From Planctomycetota bacterium (GTDB lineage: Bacteria; Planctomycetota; UBA1135; UBA2386), in assembly GCA_016794425.1 (NCBI GenBank), contig JAEUHR010000025.1, positions 155,041-219,040 on the forward strand: DNA of 64,000 nt. Direction: 5' to 3'. Below are positions 13,438 to 17,228 of the stretch, piece by piece; the stretch's first letter is position 1; the number at the start of each line of letters is the position of its first letter. The notes beneath the pieces were generated by a model that was given only the letters and a program-made list of their open reading frames with translations, searched no databases and was not told the DNA's origin. Made by a program: the position numbers and the translations under genes.

Positions 13438-14511
13438 ATGGTCGCCGCCTGGCAACTGCAGCAGTGCGTGACCACGCTGTGGTCGCTGGTCGGTTCGTGC
13501 CGTGACGGCCACGAGCCGGCCGAACGCCGCGCCGCCGCCGAAGCCGCCGCCGCCGCGCTGGCGAGCGCCGGGGGTCCGCTGCAGGCGCTGCACCTGGCCG
13601 AGAACGGCGGGGCGCTGCAGGCCAACGGCGTGCCGCTGCCGCTCGACGTGCCGGTGTTCGCGGCGGCGTCCGGCCTCGCCGCGCTGCTGCGGGACCTCGA
13701 TCTCGACTACGTCTGCTTCGACGGCGGCGTCGCCGCCGACGAACTGCTGGCGTGGGGCGAACGCTGCGCCGCGGCGCAGCAGGCCGGACGGCCGCTGGCG
13801 CGACCGATGCTGGCGCCGCTCGGGCCGAGCGTGCACGACGCCGGGCGCCGGGTGTCGGTCGCCGACACCGCGCGCACGGCCGGCCGGCGCGATGAAGCGG
13901 GCGAACAGACCGACTCGCGCCTGCGGTCGGTGTTCCTGCAGTTCCACCTGATGCACGGTCTCGGCAGTGACGGTCTGGTGCCGCCCGGCATCGCCAAGGT
14001 CGTCGTGCAGGCGATCGTCGATCGGCTGCTGCTGCTGCCCGGCGGGCTCGAACCGCTGATGCTGCTGCAGCGGGATCCGGCGCGCCTGCGCCGCGCGACC
14101 GAGGTCGCGGTGCTGGCGGTCGTGATCGCACGCACCGCCGGCTGGCCCGACGACCGGCTCGCCGACGTCGGCGGCGCCGCGCTGCTGCACGACCTCGGCG
14201 CGGTGCTCGACGCGAGGCGGCCGGGACCGGCGGGCTTCCGCTGGCTGCTGCAGCGCGGCAGCGACGACTTCTGGCTGCGCGCGGCGCTGGTGTCGCGCTG
14301 GTGGCGCGACGATCAGGTCGTCGGCGGCAGCGACGGACTGACCGACGCCGGCACAGCCGCGGTGGTGCGGCTGGCGACGATCCTCGCCGCGGCGACGGCG
14401 CGCGGGGAAGGCTCGGCGACGGTGCGCGACCGGTTGCGGGCCGGCGCGGCCGAGCCGCTGGCGCCGGAACTGGTCGCGGTCGCCGACGCGGCGCTGGCGG
14501 CGCTCGGCTGA
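13438..14511 (+). CDS. HD-domain (degenerate HD-GYP-like) signalling protein
   Basis: The C-terminal half has VAVLAVVIARTAGW....GGAALLHDLG, an HD motif in a helical context. The N-terminal half is unassigned. It follows the kinase/regulator pair on the same strand. Confidence 0.55.
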   Translation: MVAAWQLQQCVTTLWSLVGSCRDGHEPAERRAAAEAAAAALASAGGPLQALHLAENGGALQANGVPLPLDVPVFAAASGLAALLRDLDLDYVCFDGGVAADELLAWGERCAAAQQAGRPLARPMLAPLGPSVHDAGRRVSVADTARTAGRRDEAGEQTDSRLRSVFLQFHLMHGLGSDGLVPPGIAKVVVQAIVDRLLLLPGGLEPLMLLQRDPARLRRATEVAVLAVVIARTAGWPDDRLADVGGAALLHDLGAVLDARRPGPAGFRWLLQRGSDDFWLRAALVSRWWRDDQVVGGSDGLTDAGTAAVVRLATILAAATARGEGSATVRDRLRAGAAEPLAPELVAVADAALAALG

Positions 14512-14517
14512 GATGGG

Positions 14518-14534
14518 ATGAGAGGGTCGGTCGC
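14518..14534. repeat. Left subterminal inverted repeat of the IS (atgagagggtcggtcgc)
   Basis: It is the perfect reverse complement of 15932-15948. Confidence 0.85.
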
Positions 14535-14589
14535 TCCGACGCAGTCGCCCACAATGGGTGCTGCACGAAAAATGGAGCAAGACCGACCC

Positions 14590-15660
14590 ATGACTCAGCC
14601 TACTCGTTCGACGTCCCCCGTGACCATCGGCCTCGACACCGGCGACCGCACAATCCACTACTGCGCCCTGGAAGCACGCGAGGTTTGCGGGCGCGGCGTT
14701 TGCCCGACGACCCGCGAAGGGCTGGACGAGGCGCTCGCGAAGTGGCCTGGCGCGCGTGTGGTGCTGGAAGCGGGCTCGCAGTCGGCTTGGATTGCTCGAC
14801 ACCTGAGGTCGCGGGGCTTCGACGTCCACGTAGTCGACCCGCGGCGGGTGCAGCTGATCTCGAAGGATCCGCGCAAGACAGACCGGCGCGACGCCGAGTT
14901 GCTGGCCCGCCTCGAGAGCGGAATGCCGGAGCTACTCGGGAGGGTGCACCACCGAGGCGAGCAGGCTCAGGCAGACCTGGCCATGATCCGTGCCCGCGAC
15001 CAGTTGGTGCGGGTGCGGAATTCGTTGGTGCAATGCGTCCGTGGACTGACGAAGTCCTTCGGGCTGCGCCTCCCATCTGCGACGACGTCGGCCTTCGGCA
15101 AGCGTGTCCGCGAGTTAGTGCCAGCAGCACTGCTGCCCGCAGTTGAGGTCGTGCTGGCACAGGTCGATGCGTTGACGGCATCGATCCGTGAACTCGACCG
15201 CCGCGTCGCACGAGTGGCCAAGGAGCGCTACCCAGAGGTCGCCAGGCTGCAACAGGTGCACGGCGTCGGTCCGGTCACCGCAGCCGCCTTCGTGCTGACG
15301 ATCGAAGAGCCGACGCGCTTCGACGACAGTCGCCGCGTTGGATCGTGGATCGGCCTGTGCCCGCGCGTCCACGCATCCGGCGACAGCAACCCCGAACTCG
15401 GGATCAGCAAATCGGGCGACGGCTACTTGCGCCGCTTGCTGGTGCAGTGCGCCCAGTACATCCTGGGGCACTTCGGCAAGGACAGCGAACTACGCCGCTT
15501 CGGATTGAAGCTGGCCGCCCGAGGCGGCCGCGCCGCGAAGAAGAAGGCCGTGACCGCGGTGGCCAGGAAACTGGCCGTGCTACTGCATCGCATCTGGCGA
15601 CGCGGTCTGACCTACGACCCCTTCCACAACACCAACCGGCAGGCGGCCCTGGCCGTCTGA
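14590..15660 (+). CDS. IS110-family transposase/recombinase (DEDD N-domain plus Transposase_20 C-domain)
   Basis: VTIGLDTGDRTIHYC, VVLEAGSQSAW, KTDRRDAELLARL, then LQQVHGVGPVTAAAFVLTIEEPTRFDDSRRVGSWIGLCPRVHASGD...ISKSGDGYLRRLLVQCA. The start is ATG 14590; an alternative is ATG 14572. Confidence 0.93.
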   Translation: MTQPTRSTSPVTIGLDTGDRTIHYCALEAREVCGRGVCPTTREGLDEALAKWPGARVVLEAGSQSAWIARHLRSRGFDVHVVDPRRVQLISKDPRKTDRRDAELLARLESGMPELLGRVHHRGEQAQADLAMIRARDQLVRVRNSLVQCVRGLTKSFGLRLPSATTSAFGKRVRELVPAALLPAVEVVLAQVDALTASIRELDRRVARVAKERYPEVARLQQVHGVGPVTAAAFVLTIEEPTRFDDSRRVGSWIGLCPRVHASGDSNPELGISKSGDGYLRRLLVQCAQYILGHFGKDSELRRFGLKLAARGGRAAKKKAVTAVARKLAVLLHRIWRRGLTYDPFHNTNRQAALAV

Positions 15661-15724
15661 GCGATCCCCGAAACCGAACAACGTGAGGAGCCTGACCTGA
15701 CCGCTACTCCCGCAAGCTGAAGAC

Positions 15725-15900
15725 TCACCGCCCGATCCCGGCGACTGCGACGGCGCTCTGGTCCTCGAGACCGTGGCTGAGATCGCAGCGCCGGATCGGA
15801 CGGATCCCAAGGTGCACCGGCCTCCGAATGAGGCCTTCAACGAGTGCGGATGGAAGTCTGCGGAGTCCGAAGCAACCGGCGGGATCGGCGCCAAGGCGCC
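15725..15900 (+). ncRNA. Candidate IS1111-type bridge (guide) RNA in the 3' non-coding arm of the IS
   Basis: This is a non-coding stretch with no credible ORF. A 9-bp long-range stem pairs 15732-15740 with 15880-15888. A local hairpin ggcctc-cgaat-gaggcc lies at 15819-15835. Two segments are identical to the flanks of the element: ggctgagat (15775-15783 equals 14506-14514) and gatggaag (15849-15856 equals the reconstructed empty site ...gatgg|aag...). Strand and ends are inferred, not demonstrated. Confidence 0.35.
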
Positions 15901-15931
15901 AGGCCCTCGCGATCAAACTCTGGCAGTTGAC

Positions 15932-15948
15932 GCGACCGACCCTCTCAT
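15932..15948. repeat. Right subterminal inverted repeat of the IS (gcgaccgaccctctcat)
   Basis: It is the perfect reverse complement of 14518-14534. Confidence 0.85.
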
Positions 15949-15953
15949 GGAAG

Positions 15954-15968
15954 CCGTGCCGGGCACGG
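15954..15968 (-). terminator. GC palindrome ccgtgcc-g-ggcacgg immediately 3' of the permease stop codon; possible terminator hairpin or REP-like IS target
   Basis: The palindrome was read directly. It abuts the stop codon at 15969-15971 on the minus strand and lies 3-4 bp from the IS right end. There is no U-run. Confidence 0.3.
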
Positions 15969-17228
15969 TCACTCGTGCCGCAGCGCCTCGACCGGGTCCA
16001 TGTTGGCGGCGCGCCAGGCCGGGTAGATGCCGAACACGACGCCGACCGCGGCCGAGATGCAGAACGCGAGCAGCACGTGCTCGGGCAGCACCACGGTCTT
16101 CACGTCGAAGCGCGCGGTGATCACGCGCGGCACGACCATGCCGAGCGCGACGCCGACGAGGCCGCCGAGCGCCGACAACACGGCGGCCTCGACCAGGAAC
16201 TGCTGCACGACGTGCTTCTTCTTGGCGCCGAGCGCGCGCCGGATGCCGATCTCGCGCGTGCGTTCGGTGACGGTCGCGAGCATCACGTTCATGATGCCGA
16301 TGCCGCCGACCAGCAGGCTGATCGAGGCGATCACCGCCAGCACGATGTTGAACATGCGCTTGCTCTCCTCCTCCTGCTGCAGCAGCTCGAGCGGCACCGT
16401 GATCTCGGTGTCGCCGCGGGTCTGGTGCGCCGGCCGCAGCATCTCGCGCAGCACGGTCGCCGCGCCTTCGACCTGGTCCGACGACGCCAGCTTGACCTTG
16501 ACCTCGTGCAGTTCGGTCAGCTCGAAGCGGTTCGTGGTCAGGTTGCGGATCGTGTCGCCGAAGCGGCGCCGCGAACTCGTCAGCGGCACGAACGCGCACT
16601 CGTCGTAGGTGGTGCCGTTCGGCCCGGCCGCGCGGCCCTGGGCCGCCAGCACGCCGACGACGCGGAAGCGGTCCTCGGTGCCGGCCAGGATCGTCTGGTC
16701 GATCGGGTTCTCGAGCGGGAACAGCAGACGCGCGAGGCTGTGTCCGAGTACGCAGACGTTCTCCTGGTTGCGCAGGTCGAGGTCGGTCAGCCAGCGGCCC
16801 TCGGCGAGCTTCATGTTGCTGACCTCGAGGAACTCGGGCTGCGTGCCGACGACGACCGTGACGCGGAACGCCTCGCCGCGCATCACGCCGCGCTGCACCT
16901 CGCGCACGCGCACGACCTGGCTCTGCGGCAGCAGGTTCTGGATCCGGTCGGCCTCGGCATAGGTGATGCCGTAGTCGAGCACGCTCCACATGTTGGAGCT
17001 CGACTGCTGCGTCTCCTCGGGCCGCACGCTGCGCACCAGCACGTTGGTGACGCCCATGTCGCGGTACTGCTCCAGCGCCTGCTGGCTCGCGCCTTCGCCG
17101 ACCGCCAGCATCGCGATCACCGACGCGACGCCGAACAGGATGCCCGCCGTGGTCAGCGAGCTGCGCAGCTTGTGCAGCATCAGGCTCTTCAGCCCGAGCT
17201 TGACGATGCGCCACGAGTCGCGGATCAC
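15969..17228 (-). CDS. ABC transporter permease, MacB/FtsX-type (MacB_PCD plus FtsX domains)
   Basis: The GTG at 17228 overlaps the ATPase stop (GTGA). N-terminus IRDSWRIVKLGLKSLMLHKLRSSLTTAGILFGVASVIAM. C-terminus VTERTREIGIRRALGAKKKHVVQQFLVEAAVLSALGG...AWRAANMDPVEALRHE. The listed ORF 15969..19232 is a run-on. Confidence 0.9.
   Translation of the reverse strand: MIRDSWRIVKLGLKSLMLHKLRSSLTTAGILFGVASVIAMLAVGEGASQQALEQYRDMGVTNVLVRSVRPEETQQSSSNMWSVLDYGITYAEADRIQNLLPQSQVVRVREVQRGVMRGEAFRVTVVVGTQPEFLEVSNMKLAEGRWLTDLDLRNQENVCVLGHSLARLLFPLENPIDQTILAGTEDRFRVVGVLAAQGRAAGPNGTTYDECAFVPLTSSRRRFGDTIRNLTTNRFELTELHEVKVKLASSDQVEGAATVLREMLRPAHQTRGDTEITVPLELLQQEEESKRMFNIVLAVIASISLLVGGIGIMNVMLATVTERTREIGIRRALGAKKKHVVQQFLVEAAVLSALGGLVGVALGMVVPRVITARFDVKTVVLPEHVLLAFCISAAVGVVFGIYPAWRAANMDPVEALRHE

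What the first reader, a model, noticed from the sequence alone, without database searches (positions are those of the whole stretch)
15725..15900. Candidate bridge RNA: the IS 3' arm contains two segments identical to the two halves of its own target site
IS110-family recombinases use an element-encoded bispecific guide (bridge) RNA. In the IS1111 subgroup it is reported to lie 3' of the recombinase gene. Here the 290-bp ORF-free 3' arm contains two matching segments:
- ggctgagat (15775-15783) is identical to the DNA immediately left of the element (14506-14514).
- gatggaag (15849-15856) is identical to the junction restored by precise excision (...gatgg + aag...).

The two segments tile the reconstructed empty site GGCTGAGATGGAAG and overlap on GAT. 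That overlap adjoins and partly covers the ATGG found at both element junctions. They flank a local hairpin (15819-15835), and the whole region is closed by a 9-bp long-range stem (15732-40 with 15880-88).

My rough estimate is that a single 9-nt match in this search space is only mildly unlikely by chance. It is the complementary pair covering both target halves that makes this interesting. Both matches are same-strand identities, which would need reconciling with the published guide geometry.
Basis: partly seen in the sequence, partly recalled or inferred. Interest (0 to 1): 0.7.

Follow-up and report, generated by a model that had tools for sequence, protein, structure and literature searches.

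The report
Bridge RNA of an IS1111-type element

Summary
The window holds one intact IS110-family, IS1111-group element at 14511-15953. It has a DEDD transposase, a perfect 17-bp subterminal inverted repeat and a 293-nt 3' non-coding arm.

I compared it with about 60 relatives (37-97% amino-acid identity, mostly from Planctomycetota genomes assembled from metagenomes). The arm encodes a conserved structured RNA of about 146 nt (15722-15867). In the family consensus helices, 97% of sequence-by-pair cells are standard base pairs, and 18 pairs show compensatory changes.

The RNA carries four guide segments:
- **RTG, 15750-59:** reverse complement of core plus right flank.
- **LTG, 15775-83:** GGCTG+AG+AT, identical to left flank plus core.
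- **RDG, 15804-09:** complementary to the left end of the element.
- **LDG, 15850-56:** ATGGAAG, identical to the right end plus core.

All four co-vary with their DNA partners across the family.

The second is a donor guide, not the other half of the target. AGATGGG and GGAAG are conserved element termini, and empty sites in relatives read left flank-AG-right flank, so the site here should be GGCTG-AG-CCGTG.

In this copy the RTG matches the right flank poorly.

Verdict: a new member of a known kind, of modest interest.

The parts
14511..15953 (+). Complete IS1111-group (IS110-family) insertion sequence, counting both copies of the AG core. It is 1441 bp with one core copy.
   Evidence: Conserved termini in 49 relatives. 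Empty sites in relatives read left flank-AG-right flank. There is a single copy in the window.
14511..14512 (+). Left copy of the AG core dinucleotide. Its A completes the TGA stop codon (14509-11) of the upstream ORF 13438-14511.
   Evidence: AG is the only sequence shared by the conserved left end (AG|ATGGG) and right end (GGA|AG). The empty sites L003:4093 and L024 support this. ORF end.
14511..14517 (+). 7-bp left extension AGATGGG beyond the inverted repeat. TGGGAT at 14514-19 is the partner of the right donor guide.
   Evidence: Conserved as AGATG[GA][GA] in the family. A 7-bp left extension is described as required in IS1111 elements (PMC11187229).
14518..14534 (+). Left subterminal inverted repeat, ATGAGAGGGTCGGTCGC.
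   Evidence: Perfect 17-bp inverted repeat with 15932-48.
14581..14589 (+). GACCGACCC directly before the ATG. It is complementary to GGGTCGGTC (14524-32) in the left inverted repeat and may form a hairpin that hides the start codon.
   Evidence: Conserved, with compensatory changes in L002, L037, L024, L052, L049 and L051. The function is inferred.
14590..15660 (+). Transposase/recombinase of 356 aa.
   Evidence: PF01548 (E = 2e-13) and PF02371 (E = 1e-21). NCBIfam NF033542 'IS110 family RNA-guided transposase', 238 bits against a cut-off of 140. PDB ISCro4 (E = 3e-9) and IS621 (E = 1e-7) transposases. The motif GLCPRVHASG is present.
15722..15867 (+). Bridge/seek RNA core of about 146 nt. 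It is closed by helix P1 (15722-26 with 15863-67).
   Evidence: Alignment A2 of 33 relatives. RNAalifold consensus. 97% of cells form standard pairs, 18 pairs have changes on both sides, and 0 of 500 shuffles reach this. The covariance model finds one copy per element, always 3' of the transposase gene on the same strand, including in held-out loci.
15728..15803 (+). Target-binding domain of 76 nt. It has a long closing stem (15728-48 with 15785-803), an internal loop and an inner hairpin (15759-73).
   Evidence: The closing stem has 17 pairs, 10 with compensatory changes, and 97.9% of cells paired. The inner hairpin has 2 of 5 pairs compensatory. Its size matches the 70-100 nt short seekRNA (PMC11187229).
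15750..15759 (+). Window for the right target guide (RTG), ACGGCGCTCT, on the 5' side of the target loop.
   Evidence: In relatives this window is the reverse complement of the right flank (4-8 nt) followed by CT. Mean match is 3.14 nt for own flanks against 0.41 nt for others, with 0 of 10000 permutations reaching this. In this copy only 1 nt beyond the core matches in register.
15775..15783 (+). Left target guide (LTG): GGCTG (left flank) + AG (core) + AT.
   Evidence: Identical to 14506-14. It co-varies with the left flank across the family. The 97%-identical relative L068 has GCCTG in both guide and flank.
15804..15809 (+). Right donor guide (RDG), ATCCCA. It is the reverse complement of TGGGAT in the left end (14514-19).
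   Evidence: It co-varies with the variable triplet of the left extension: GGG with CCC (17), GAG with CTC (8), GGA with TCC (5), GAA with TTC, CGG with CCG. The exceptions are mostly G:U wobbles.
15813..15848 (+). Inner stem of the donor loop (15813-18 with 15842-48), enclosing the hairpin 15819-35.
   Evidence: The stem is nearly invariant, with 99.5% of cells paired. The hairpin arms vary in a compensatory way, seen by eye in the alignment.
15850..15856 (+). Left donor guide (LDG), ATGGAAG. It is identical to the right terminus 15947-53 (ATGGA + core AG).
   Evidence: 33 of 34 elements ending ATGGAAG carry ATGGAAG. All 6 elements ending ATAGAAG carry ATAGAA[GA], in two lineages (the L001 group and L014).
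15887..15900 (+). Conserved 3' hairpin, GGCGCC-AA-GGCGCC. Its role is unknown.
   Evidence: 97.7% of cells paired. Compensatory change in L023 (GGCACC/GGTGCC).
15927..15932 (+). TTGACG, a probable -35 box of a promoter formed only at the circle junction (TTGACG, 17 nt, GAAG|AT).
   Evidence: TTGAC is conserved at a fixed distance from the right inverted repeat. No sigma-70-like promoter is found in the integrated copy. A junction promoter is documented for ISEc11 (PMC11187229). This is an inference.
15932..15948 (+). Right subterminal inverted repeat, GCGACCGACCCTCTCAT.
15949..15953 (+). Right extension GGA plus the right copy of the AG core.
   Evidence: [GA]GAAG is conserved in all relatives.

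Best explanation
**What it is.** Positions 15722-15867 on the + strand encode the bridge RNA (also called seekRNA) of an intact IS1111-group, IS110-family insertion sequence at 14511-15953.

**Expression (inferred).** The RNA is probably co-transcribed with the transposase gene from a promoter that forms only when the element circularises. It would then be trimmed and bound by the DEDD/serine recombinase.

**Target recognition.**
- In the target-binding domain, the 5' side of an internal loop carries the RTG. [quoted passage not shown]
- The 3' side carries the LTG, GGCUG-AG. [quoted passage not shown]
- The two pairings overlap on the AG core, where the strands are exchanged.

**Donor recognition.**
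- Two further single-stranded segments sit in a multi-branch loop.
[quoted passage not shown] - Together they recognise the circle junction ...CTCATGGA-AG-ATGGGATGAG...

**Outcome.** Recombination at AG inserts the element in one orientation and leaves only the 2-bp core repeated. The predicted empty site here is GCGCTCGGCTG-AG-CCGTGCCGGG.

**Shown and inferred.**
- Shown: the conserved structure, the four guide-DNA relationships and their covariation, the AG core in relatives, and the protein family.
- Inferred: transcription, processing, protein binding and catalysis.
For: - **Protein family:**
- **Element ends:** perfect 17-bp subterminal inverted repeat and family-conserved termini.
- **Core:** empty sites reading left flank-AG-right flank at L003:4093 and in L024.
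- **Structure:** conserved helices with 18 compensatory pairs, 97% of cells paired, 0 of 500 shuffles as good, and at most 39% paired when partners are slid.
- **LTG:** 22 of 39 elements show 5 of 5 matches to their own left flank. Mean 3.97 against 0.98, with 0 of 10000 permutations. Held-out loci L026, L031, L011, L042 and L035 also show 5 of 5.
- **RTG:** mean 3.14 against 0.41, with 0 of 10000 permutations. L057, at 37% amino-acid identity, still matches 7 nt plus the core.
- **Donor guides:** they co-vary with variants of the element ends.
- **Covariance model:** it finds exactly one RNA per element, 3' of the transposase gene on the same strand.
- **Literature:** IS1111 elements have a 3' non-coding region, the top-strand match lies 5' of the bottom-strand match, the matches overlap in the target, the RNAs are 145-170 nt (long) and 70-100 nt (short), and the left extension is 7 bp (PMC11187229). 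In IS1111 elements the donor-binding nucleotides lie in a multi-loop (PMC11208160).
Against: - There is no expression or binding data for this element.
- In this copy the RTG (ACGGCGCUCU) matches the right flank (AG-CCGTG) by only the core plus 1 nt in register. A 6-bp match (AGCCGT) needs a 2-nt bulge.
- 12 of 36 relatives likewise show 1 nt or less by my strict contiguous measure.
- No Rfam 15 family matches the region.
- The AG core is demonstrated in relatives at 68-70% amino-acid identity, not for this copy.
- The 2 nt after the core in the LTG (AT) do not consistently track the left end, so a 'handshake' role for them is unproven.
Confidence: 0.88

Rival explanations
1. Both segments are target guides that tile the empty site GGCTGAGATGGAAG, one for each half, overlapping on GAT next to an ATGG core.
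For: Both identities exist in the sequence, and ATGG is at both junctions.
Against: - AGATGGG and GGAAG are conserved termini in 49 relatives with unrelated flanks.
- Relatives with AGATGGA/ATAGAAG or AGATGAG/ATGGAAG ends do not share ATGG.
- Empty sites lack ATGG.
- GATGGAAG does not vary with the flanks, only with the element's right end.
- A separate flank-tracking guide for the right half exists at 15750-59.
Confidence: 0.02
2. The conserved 3'-arm segments act as DNA sites, such as extra recombinase-binding sites or copies of the ends, and not through an RNA.
For: - The LDG and RDG repeat or complement the element ends.
- A third copy of the inverted-repeat core lies at 14581-89.
- No expression data exist.
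Against: - 18 helix pairs keep pairing through changes on both sides, which argues for a folded single strand.
- The guide segments track arbitrary flanking DNA, which protein-binding sites would not.
- Homologous non-coding regions are shown experimentally to act as RNA (PMC11187229, PMC11208160).
Confidence: 0.04
3. The RNA gene is real, but this particular copy did not arrive by its own guide. It may be an off-target or left-flank-only insertion, or the right flank may have been altered later by deletion or rearrangement.
For: - The left flank matches 5 of 5 plus the core, but the right flank matches only 1 nt in register.
- L010 looks like an insertion into the LTG-coding DNA of another copy, where only left flank plus core can match.
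- Several relatives also have poor right-flank matches.
Against: - A 6-bp RTG match is possible with a 2-nt bulge.
- The position next to the core does track between this copy and L068: a guide G with flank C here, and a guide C with flank G in L068.
- No sign of rearrangement is visible. The flank is a tidy 3'-3' intergenic hairpin.
Confidence: 0.3
4. The matches arose by chance in GC-rich DNA.
For: The single 8-mer is weak: 3 copies against 0.85 expected in the window.
Against: - The 9-mer is unique apart from the flank copy.
- The same positional rule holds in dozens of relatives and in held-out loci.
Confidence: 0.01

Closest known systems
IS1111-group seekRNA / bridge RNA (ISEc11, ISPa11, ISKpn4, ISPst6; Siddiquee et al. 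2024, PMC11187229; IS1111 predictions in Durrant et al. 2024, PMC11208160)
   Same: - The RNA is encoded in the long non-coding region 3' of the transposase gene.
- The inverted repeats are subterminal, with a 7-bp left extension.
- The guide for the top strand lies 5' of the guide for the bottom strand, and their target matches overlap.
- The target domain is about 76 nt (compare the 70-100 nt short form) within a core of about 146 nt (compare the 145-170 nt long form).
- The donor-binding nucleotides lie in a multi-branch loop.
- Insertion is orientation-specific with no duplication beyond the core.
- The circle junction appears to form a promoter.
   Different: - The lineage is different. 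The relatives found are almost all from Planctomycetota genomes assembled from metagenomes, and plasmid-borne IS110-family genes are at most about 35% identical.
- The core is AG.
- The left guide is very short and sharply defined at 5 nt plus the core.
- This family is untested experimentally.
IS621 bridge RNA (IS110 group; Durrant et al. 2024; Hiraizumi et al. 2024, PDB 8WT6)
   Same: - The RNA is bispecific, with a target loop and a donor site.
- Each has one guide for the bottom strand (left side plus core) and one for the top strand (core plus right side).
- The core is a 2-nt dinucleotide included in the pairings.
- The recombinase has the same DEDD and Tnp domains.
   Different: - The IS621 RNA lies 5' of the gene in the left end.
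[quoted passage not shown] Here it is on the 3' side.
- IS621 has two successive simple internal loops. Here the target domain is nested inside the donor multi-loop.
- The IS621 core is CT and its inverted repeats are only 2-3 bp.
ISPpu9 / Ssr9 small RNA of Pseudomonas putida (PMC12288879)
   Same: An IS110-family element that inserts into REP-like palindromes and has a small RNA gene downstream of the transposase gene.
   Different: I did not compare the sequences. Ssr9 also occurs as orphan copies, whereas here the covariance model finds the RNA only inside elements.

Membership tests
IS110 family, IS1111 group insertion sequence | Transposase with an N-terminal DEDD (RuvC-like) domain and a C-terminal PF02371 domain. 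| tested here: met
   PF01548 and PF02371. NF033542 at 238 bits against a cut-off of 140. Matches to the ISCro4 and IS621 transposases in the PDB.
IS110 family, IS1111 group insertion sequence | C-terminal motif GL-P----S(T)G, typical of IS1111 transposases (PMC11187229). | tested here: met
   GLCPRVHASG in the translation. G255, P258 and G264 are invariant and S263 nearly invariant in 47 homologues.
IS110 family, IS1111 group insertion sequence | Subterminal inverted repeats of 7-17 bp, with a 7-bp extension at the left end. | tested here: met
   17-bp perfect inverted repeat at 14518-34 and 15932-48. Conserved 7-nt AGATGGG to its left.
IS110 family, IS1111 group insertion sequence | The long non-coding region lies downstream of the transposase gene and the left end is short. 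| tested here: met
   79 nt lie before the ATG and 293 nt after the stop codon.
IS110 family, IS1111 group insertion sequence | Site- and orientation-specific insertion with no target duplication beyond the shared core. | tested here: inconclusive
   Met in relatives: multi-copy elements share the target GGTCTC-AG-AGACTC, and there are empty sites at L003:4093 and in L024. No empty allele is available for this copy.
IS110 family, IS1111 group insertion sequence | A circular intermediate with a promoter formed at the junction. | not testable with these tools
   The sequence is compatible: TTGACG, 17 nt, GAAG|AT, and no promoter in the integrated form.
Bridge RNA / seekRNA | A structured non-coding RNA encoded in the element's long non-coding end. 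| tested here: met
   Consensus fold with 18 compensatory pairs, 97% of cells paired, 0 of 500 shuffles as good. Recovered in held-out loci by the covariance model.
Bridge RNA / seekRNA | A guide identical to left flank plus core, pairing with the bottom strand and co-varying with the flank. | tested here: met
   15775-81 is GGCTG+AG. Family statistics and held-out loci.
Bridge RNA / seekRNA | A guide that is the reverse complement of core plus right flank, overlapping the first guide on the core. | tested here: inconclusive
   Met across the family: mean match 3.14 nt for own flanks against 0.41 nt for others, with 0 of 10000 permutations reaching this. In this copy only the core plus 1 nt pair in register.
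Bridge RNA / seekRNA | IS1111 order: the top-strand guide lies 5' of the bottom-strand guide. | tested here: met
   RTG at 15750-59 precedes LTG at 15775-83, and RDG at 15804-09 precedes LDG at 15850-56.
Bridge RNA / seekRNA | Donor-binding segments complementary to the element's ends. | tested here: met
   RDG and LDG co-vary with variants of the left and right ends.
Bridge RNA / seekRNA | The RNA is expressed, binds the recombinase and is required and reprogrammable for transposition. | not testable with these tools
   Needs experiments.
Any Rfam 15 family | A match to a curated covariance model. | tested here: not met
   Best hits score 17-18 bits against gathering scores of 56-59. No curated model covers this RNA.

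The most novel reading that the evidence does not exclude
In this lineage, a 5-nt match to the left flank plus the AG core may be enough for insertion.
- This copy has a poor right-flank match.
- L010 looks like a copy inserted into the LTG-coding DNA of a sister copy.
- If so, the guide gene itself would be a built-in self-target.

Separately, the perfect 9-bp complementarity 15732-40 / 15880-88 competes with the closing stem of the target domain. It could be an alternative helix that switches the RNA between its long and short forms.
Probability: 0.12. Interest if true: 0.5.

Novelty: new member of a known kind. Interest (0 to 1): 0.3.

Why it matters
The finding confirms, from sequence comparison alone, that a previously uncatalogued lineage of IS1111-type elements, found mostly in Planctomycetota genomes assembled from metagenomes, carries a complete two-specificity guide RNA.

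It yields:
- a clean map of all four guides and of the AG core;
- a covariance model for annotating such RNAs, which Rfam 15 does not cover;
- a corrected set of element boundaries.

The short, sharply defined guides (5 nt plus core) and the nested layout of the target and donor sites add a data point for people who engineer bridge recombinases. The principle itself was published in 2024.

Tried and rejected
- **Rfam scan of 14300-16200 at E up to 10:** only chance-level hits.
- **Exact-protein look-up of the window's transposase:** not on record, so I found no second copy of this exact element and no empty allele.
- **Search of the window for the site the RTG predicts (GGCTGAGCGCCGT, up to 3 mismatches):** 110 hits against 109 expected, so it is uninformative.
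- **Alternative outer stem for the donor loop (15797-801 with 15865-69):** 84% of cells paired but no compensatory change, and it conflicts with the closing stem of the target domain. Rejected in favour of P1.
the complementarity is real, but only 74-86% of cells pair and the central pair is broken in 22 of 33 sequences.
- **Closest named relative in plasmids:** only generic 'IS110 family transposase' annotations, at 35% identity or less.
- **Collection scans:** the genome and metagenome scans were each spent on the transposase alignment, so no collection-wide search for the empty site GGCTGAGCCGTGCC was possible.

Full report
**Observation.**
- GGCTGAGAT occurs only at 14506-14 and 15775-83, where 0.34 copies are expected in the window.
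- GATGGAAG is at 15849-56. There are three copies in the window against 0.85 expected, so on its own it is weak.
- ATGG is at both junctions, the hairpin at 15819-35 exists, and 15732-40 is perfectly complementary to 15880-88.

**The element.**
- ORF 14590-15660 encodes a 356-aa protein with the two IS110-family domains, PF01548 and PF02371.
- NCBIfam names it 'IS110 family RNA-guided transposase' at 238 bits against a cut-off of 140.
- It matches the ISCro4 and IS621 transposases in the PDB and carries the IS1111-type motif GLCPRVHASG.
- A perfect 17-bp subterminal inverted repeat lies at 14518-34 and 15932-48.
- The left non-coding end is 79 nt and the right is 293 nt, which is the IS1111 arrangement (PMC11187229; PMC11208160).

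**Relatives.**
- A protein search found thousands of homologues.
- I fetched 77 loci: 20 from genomes, almost all Planctomycetota genomes assembled from metagenomes; 47 from metagenomes; and 10 around the closest proteins, at 79-97% identity.
- The window's own protein is not on record elsewhere.

**Boundaries and core.**
- In 49 elements with recognisable inverted repeats, the 7 nt left of the repeat are always AGATG[GA][GA]. The 5 nt right of it are always [GA]GAAG. The sequence beyond these is unrelated from element to element.
- These nucleotides therefore belong to the element. This matches the 7-bp left extension described for IS1111 members.
- The only dinucleotide shared by the two conserved ends is AG (AG|ATGGG... 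and ...GGA|AG).
- Two empty sites confirm it.
  - L003:4093 carries GAGGCCAGTGTTGTCTTCG-AG-CCTCCGGGAGC. This is an uninterrupted copy of the repeat that is split by the element in L002 and L004.
  - L024 contains GGAAGTGCTCTG-AG-CAAATTCTTCGG. It lies on a fold-back at the contig end that is probably an assembly join of the empty allele.
- The element here is thus 14511-15953 with AG at each end.
- The predicted empty site is GCGCTCGGCTG-AG-CCGTGCCGGG. It keeps the TGA stop of the upstream ORF and lies in a 17-bp 3'-3' intergenic hairpin.

**The RNA.**
- An alignment of 43 distinct 3' arms, and a cleaner one of 33 (A2), show a conserved block at 15722-15903.
- RNAalifold, extended by one helix I added by inspection (P1), gives five helices:
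  - P1, 15722-26 with 15863-67;
  - a long closing stem, 15728-48 with 15785-803;
  - an inner hairpin, 15759-73;
  - a donor-side stem, 15813-18 with 15842-48, which encloses the hairpin 15819-35;
  - a 3' hairpin, 15888-99.
- On A2, 97.0% of cells form standard pairs and 18 of 37 pairs change on both sides. None of 500 shuffles reaches these values, and sliding the partners drops pairing to 28-39%.
- A covariance model built from this alignment finds exactly one copy in the window. It finds one per element elsewhere, always 3' of the transposase gene on the same strand. This includes loci not used to build it, down to 37% protein identity.
- Rfam 15 has no matching family.

**Target guides.**
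- On the 3' side of the first internal loop, each element carries the last 5 nt of its own left flank followed by AG, and usually AT.
  - Examples: this element GGCTG, L068 GCCTG, L070 GACTG, the L001 group GTCTC, L073 TTGAT, L025 TCGCA.
  - Among 39 distinct guide sets, 22 match exactly 5 nt. The mean is 3.97 nt against 0.98 nt for non-cognate pairs, and 0 of 10000 permutations reach this.
  - Held-out loci L026, L031, L011, L042 and L035 also match 5 of 5.
- On the 5' side of the same loop lies the reverse complement of the right flank (4-8 nt) followed by CT.
  - Examples: L002 CCGGAGG-CT, L025 GTGAACG-CT, L054 TATGTTCC-CT, L057 TAGTGGC-CT.
  - The mean is 3.14 nt against 0.41 nt, with 0 of 10000 permutations.
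- The two pairings overlap on the AG core, and the top-strand guide lies 5' of the bottom-strand guide. This is the published IS1111 geometry. It is the reverse of IS621.

**Donor guides.**
- ATCCCA at 15804-09 is the reverse complement of TGGGAT in the left end.
  - Its middle triplet follows the variable triplet of the left extension: GGG with CCC (17 elements), GAG with CTC (8), GGA with TCC (5), GAA with TTC, CGG with CCG.
  - Most exceptions are G:U wobbles.
- ATGGAAG at 15850-56 is identical to the right terminus plus core.
  - It is invariant except in the six elements whose right end is ATAGAAG, which carry ATAGAA[GA]. These fall in two lineages.
- The donor guides lie in a multi-branch loop bounded by P1, the target domain and the inner stem. 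Durrant et al. noted this layout for many IS1111 orthologues.
- The 76-nt target domain corresponds in size to the short seekRNA. The 146-nt core corresponds to the long form.

**This copy.**
- The LTG matches the left flank 5 of 5 plus the core.
- The RTG window, ACGGCGCTCT, predicts AG-CGCCGT, but the flank is AG-CCGTGC. Only one nucleotide beyond the core pairs in register. A 6-bp match needs a 2-nt bulge.
- A third of relatives are similarly poor by my strict measure.
- The 97%-identical L068 differs by one nucleotide in each target guide. The available flank bases agree with those changes.
- I cannot tell whether this is tolerated mismatch, an off-target event or later change of the flank.

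- It is perfect here, but its 5' arm forms the closing stem of the target domain in every relative.
- Across the family it pairs in 74-86% of cells, and the central pair is broken in 22 of 33 sequences.
- It may be an alternative helix, which I leave open.

**Mechanism.** The established steps come from the literature on homologous elements (PMC11187229, PMC11208160).
1. The element is excised to a circle.
2. A promoter forms at the junction.
3. The transposase and the downstream RNA are co-transcribed.
4. The RNA binds the recombinase.
5. The donor guides hold the junction and the target guides hold the target.
6. Strands are exchanged at the core.

What I show here is the anatomy and the covariation that fit each of these steps. 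What remains inferred for this element is expression, processing and activity. No sigma-70-like promoter is present in the integrated copy. The conserved TTGAC lies 17 nt from GAAG|AT at the junction.

**Novelty.** This is a new member of a known kind. Its interest lies in the clean comparative proof and the corrected interpretation, not in a new principle.

Noticed in passing
L010:3440-3920 (OZ245006.1, the same assembled genome as L002-L004): The right end ...CTCATGGA-AG of one copy runs straight into AAAGCTGCGCCGGG.... That is the bridge-RNA sequence which follows LTG+core (GTTATCG-AG) in a sister copy. The rest of that copy's RNA, its right end and its normal flank then follow. It looks like an insertion into the guide-coding DNA of another copy, where only left flank plus core can match. 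The covariance model sees two RNAs in tandem (171.9 and 77.9 bits). The left junction is missing because the transposase gene is truncated at its 5' end.
   Followed up: partly
window 14524-14532 and 14581-14589: GACCGACCC directly before the transposase ATG is complementary to GGGTCGGTC in the left inverted repeat. The pairing is kept through compensatory changes in relatives (L002 GGGTCGATC/GATCGACCC; L037 over 12 nt; L024, L049, L051, L052). It may be a hairpin that hides the ribosome-binding site and start codon in read-through transcripts, or a third recombinase site.
   Followed up: partly
window 15927-15953 joined to 14513-14514: TTGAC is conserved at a fixed distance from the right inverted repeat in nearly all relatives. 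At the circle junction it would give TTGACG, 17 nt, GAAGAT. This is a promoter that exists only in the excised circle. The integrated copy has no sigma-70-like promoter.
   Followed up: partly
window 15732-15740 with 15880-15888: This perfect 9-bp complementarity competes with the closing stem of the target domain. In relatives the 3' partner is only partly conserved (77% of cells paired overall), but the central pair changes on both sides in four sequences. It may be an alternative conformation and remains unexplained.
   Followed up: partly
window 15751-15758 and 14498-14505: The RTG window contains CGGCGCTC. This is identical to the 8 nt of left flank directly 5' of GGCTG, so the two target-loop strands together copy 17 contiguous nt of the left junction. 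It is probably chance in GC-rich DNA, but I did not test it.
   Followed up: no
flanks of many relatives; window 14501-14512 with 15954-15958: Reconstructed targets are often short palindromes centred near the core: here CGGCT-G-AGCCG, L007 TTCGGCT-G-AGCCGAA, the L001 group GTCTC-A-GAGAC. Many left flanks end in CTG, so TGA stop codons are retained. This suggests a preference for REP-like or terminator hairpins at gene ends.
   Followed up: no
window 15887-15900: The hairpin GGCGCC-AA-GGCGCC, just 3' of the bridge RNA, is conserved with a compensatory change in L023. No U-tract follows it, and its role (processing, stability or protein binding) is unknown.
   Followed up: no
L018:5264-5442 (- strand): A second bridge-RNA hit, and so a second element copy in opposite orientation, lies about 1.5 kb from the first in the assembled genome ABC2.42. 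That genome carries at least six copies in GGTCTC-AG-AGACTC repeats.
   Followed up: no
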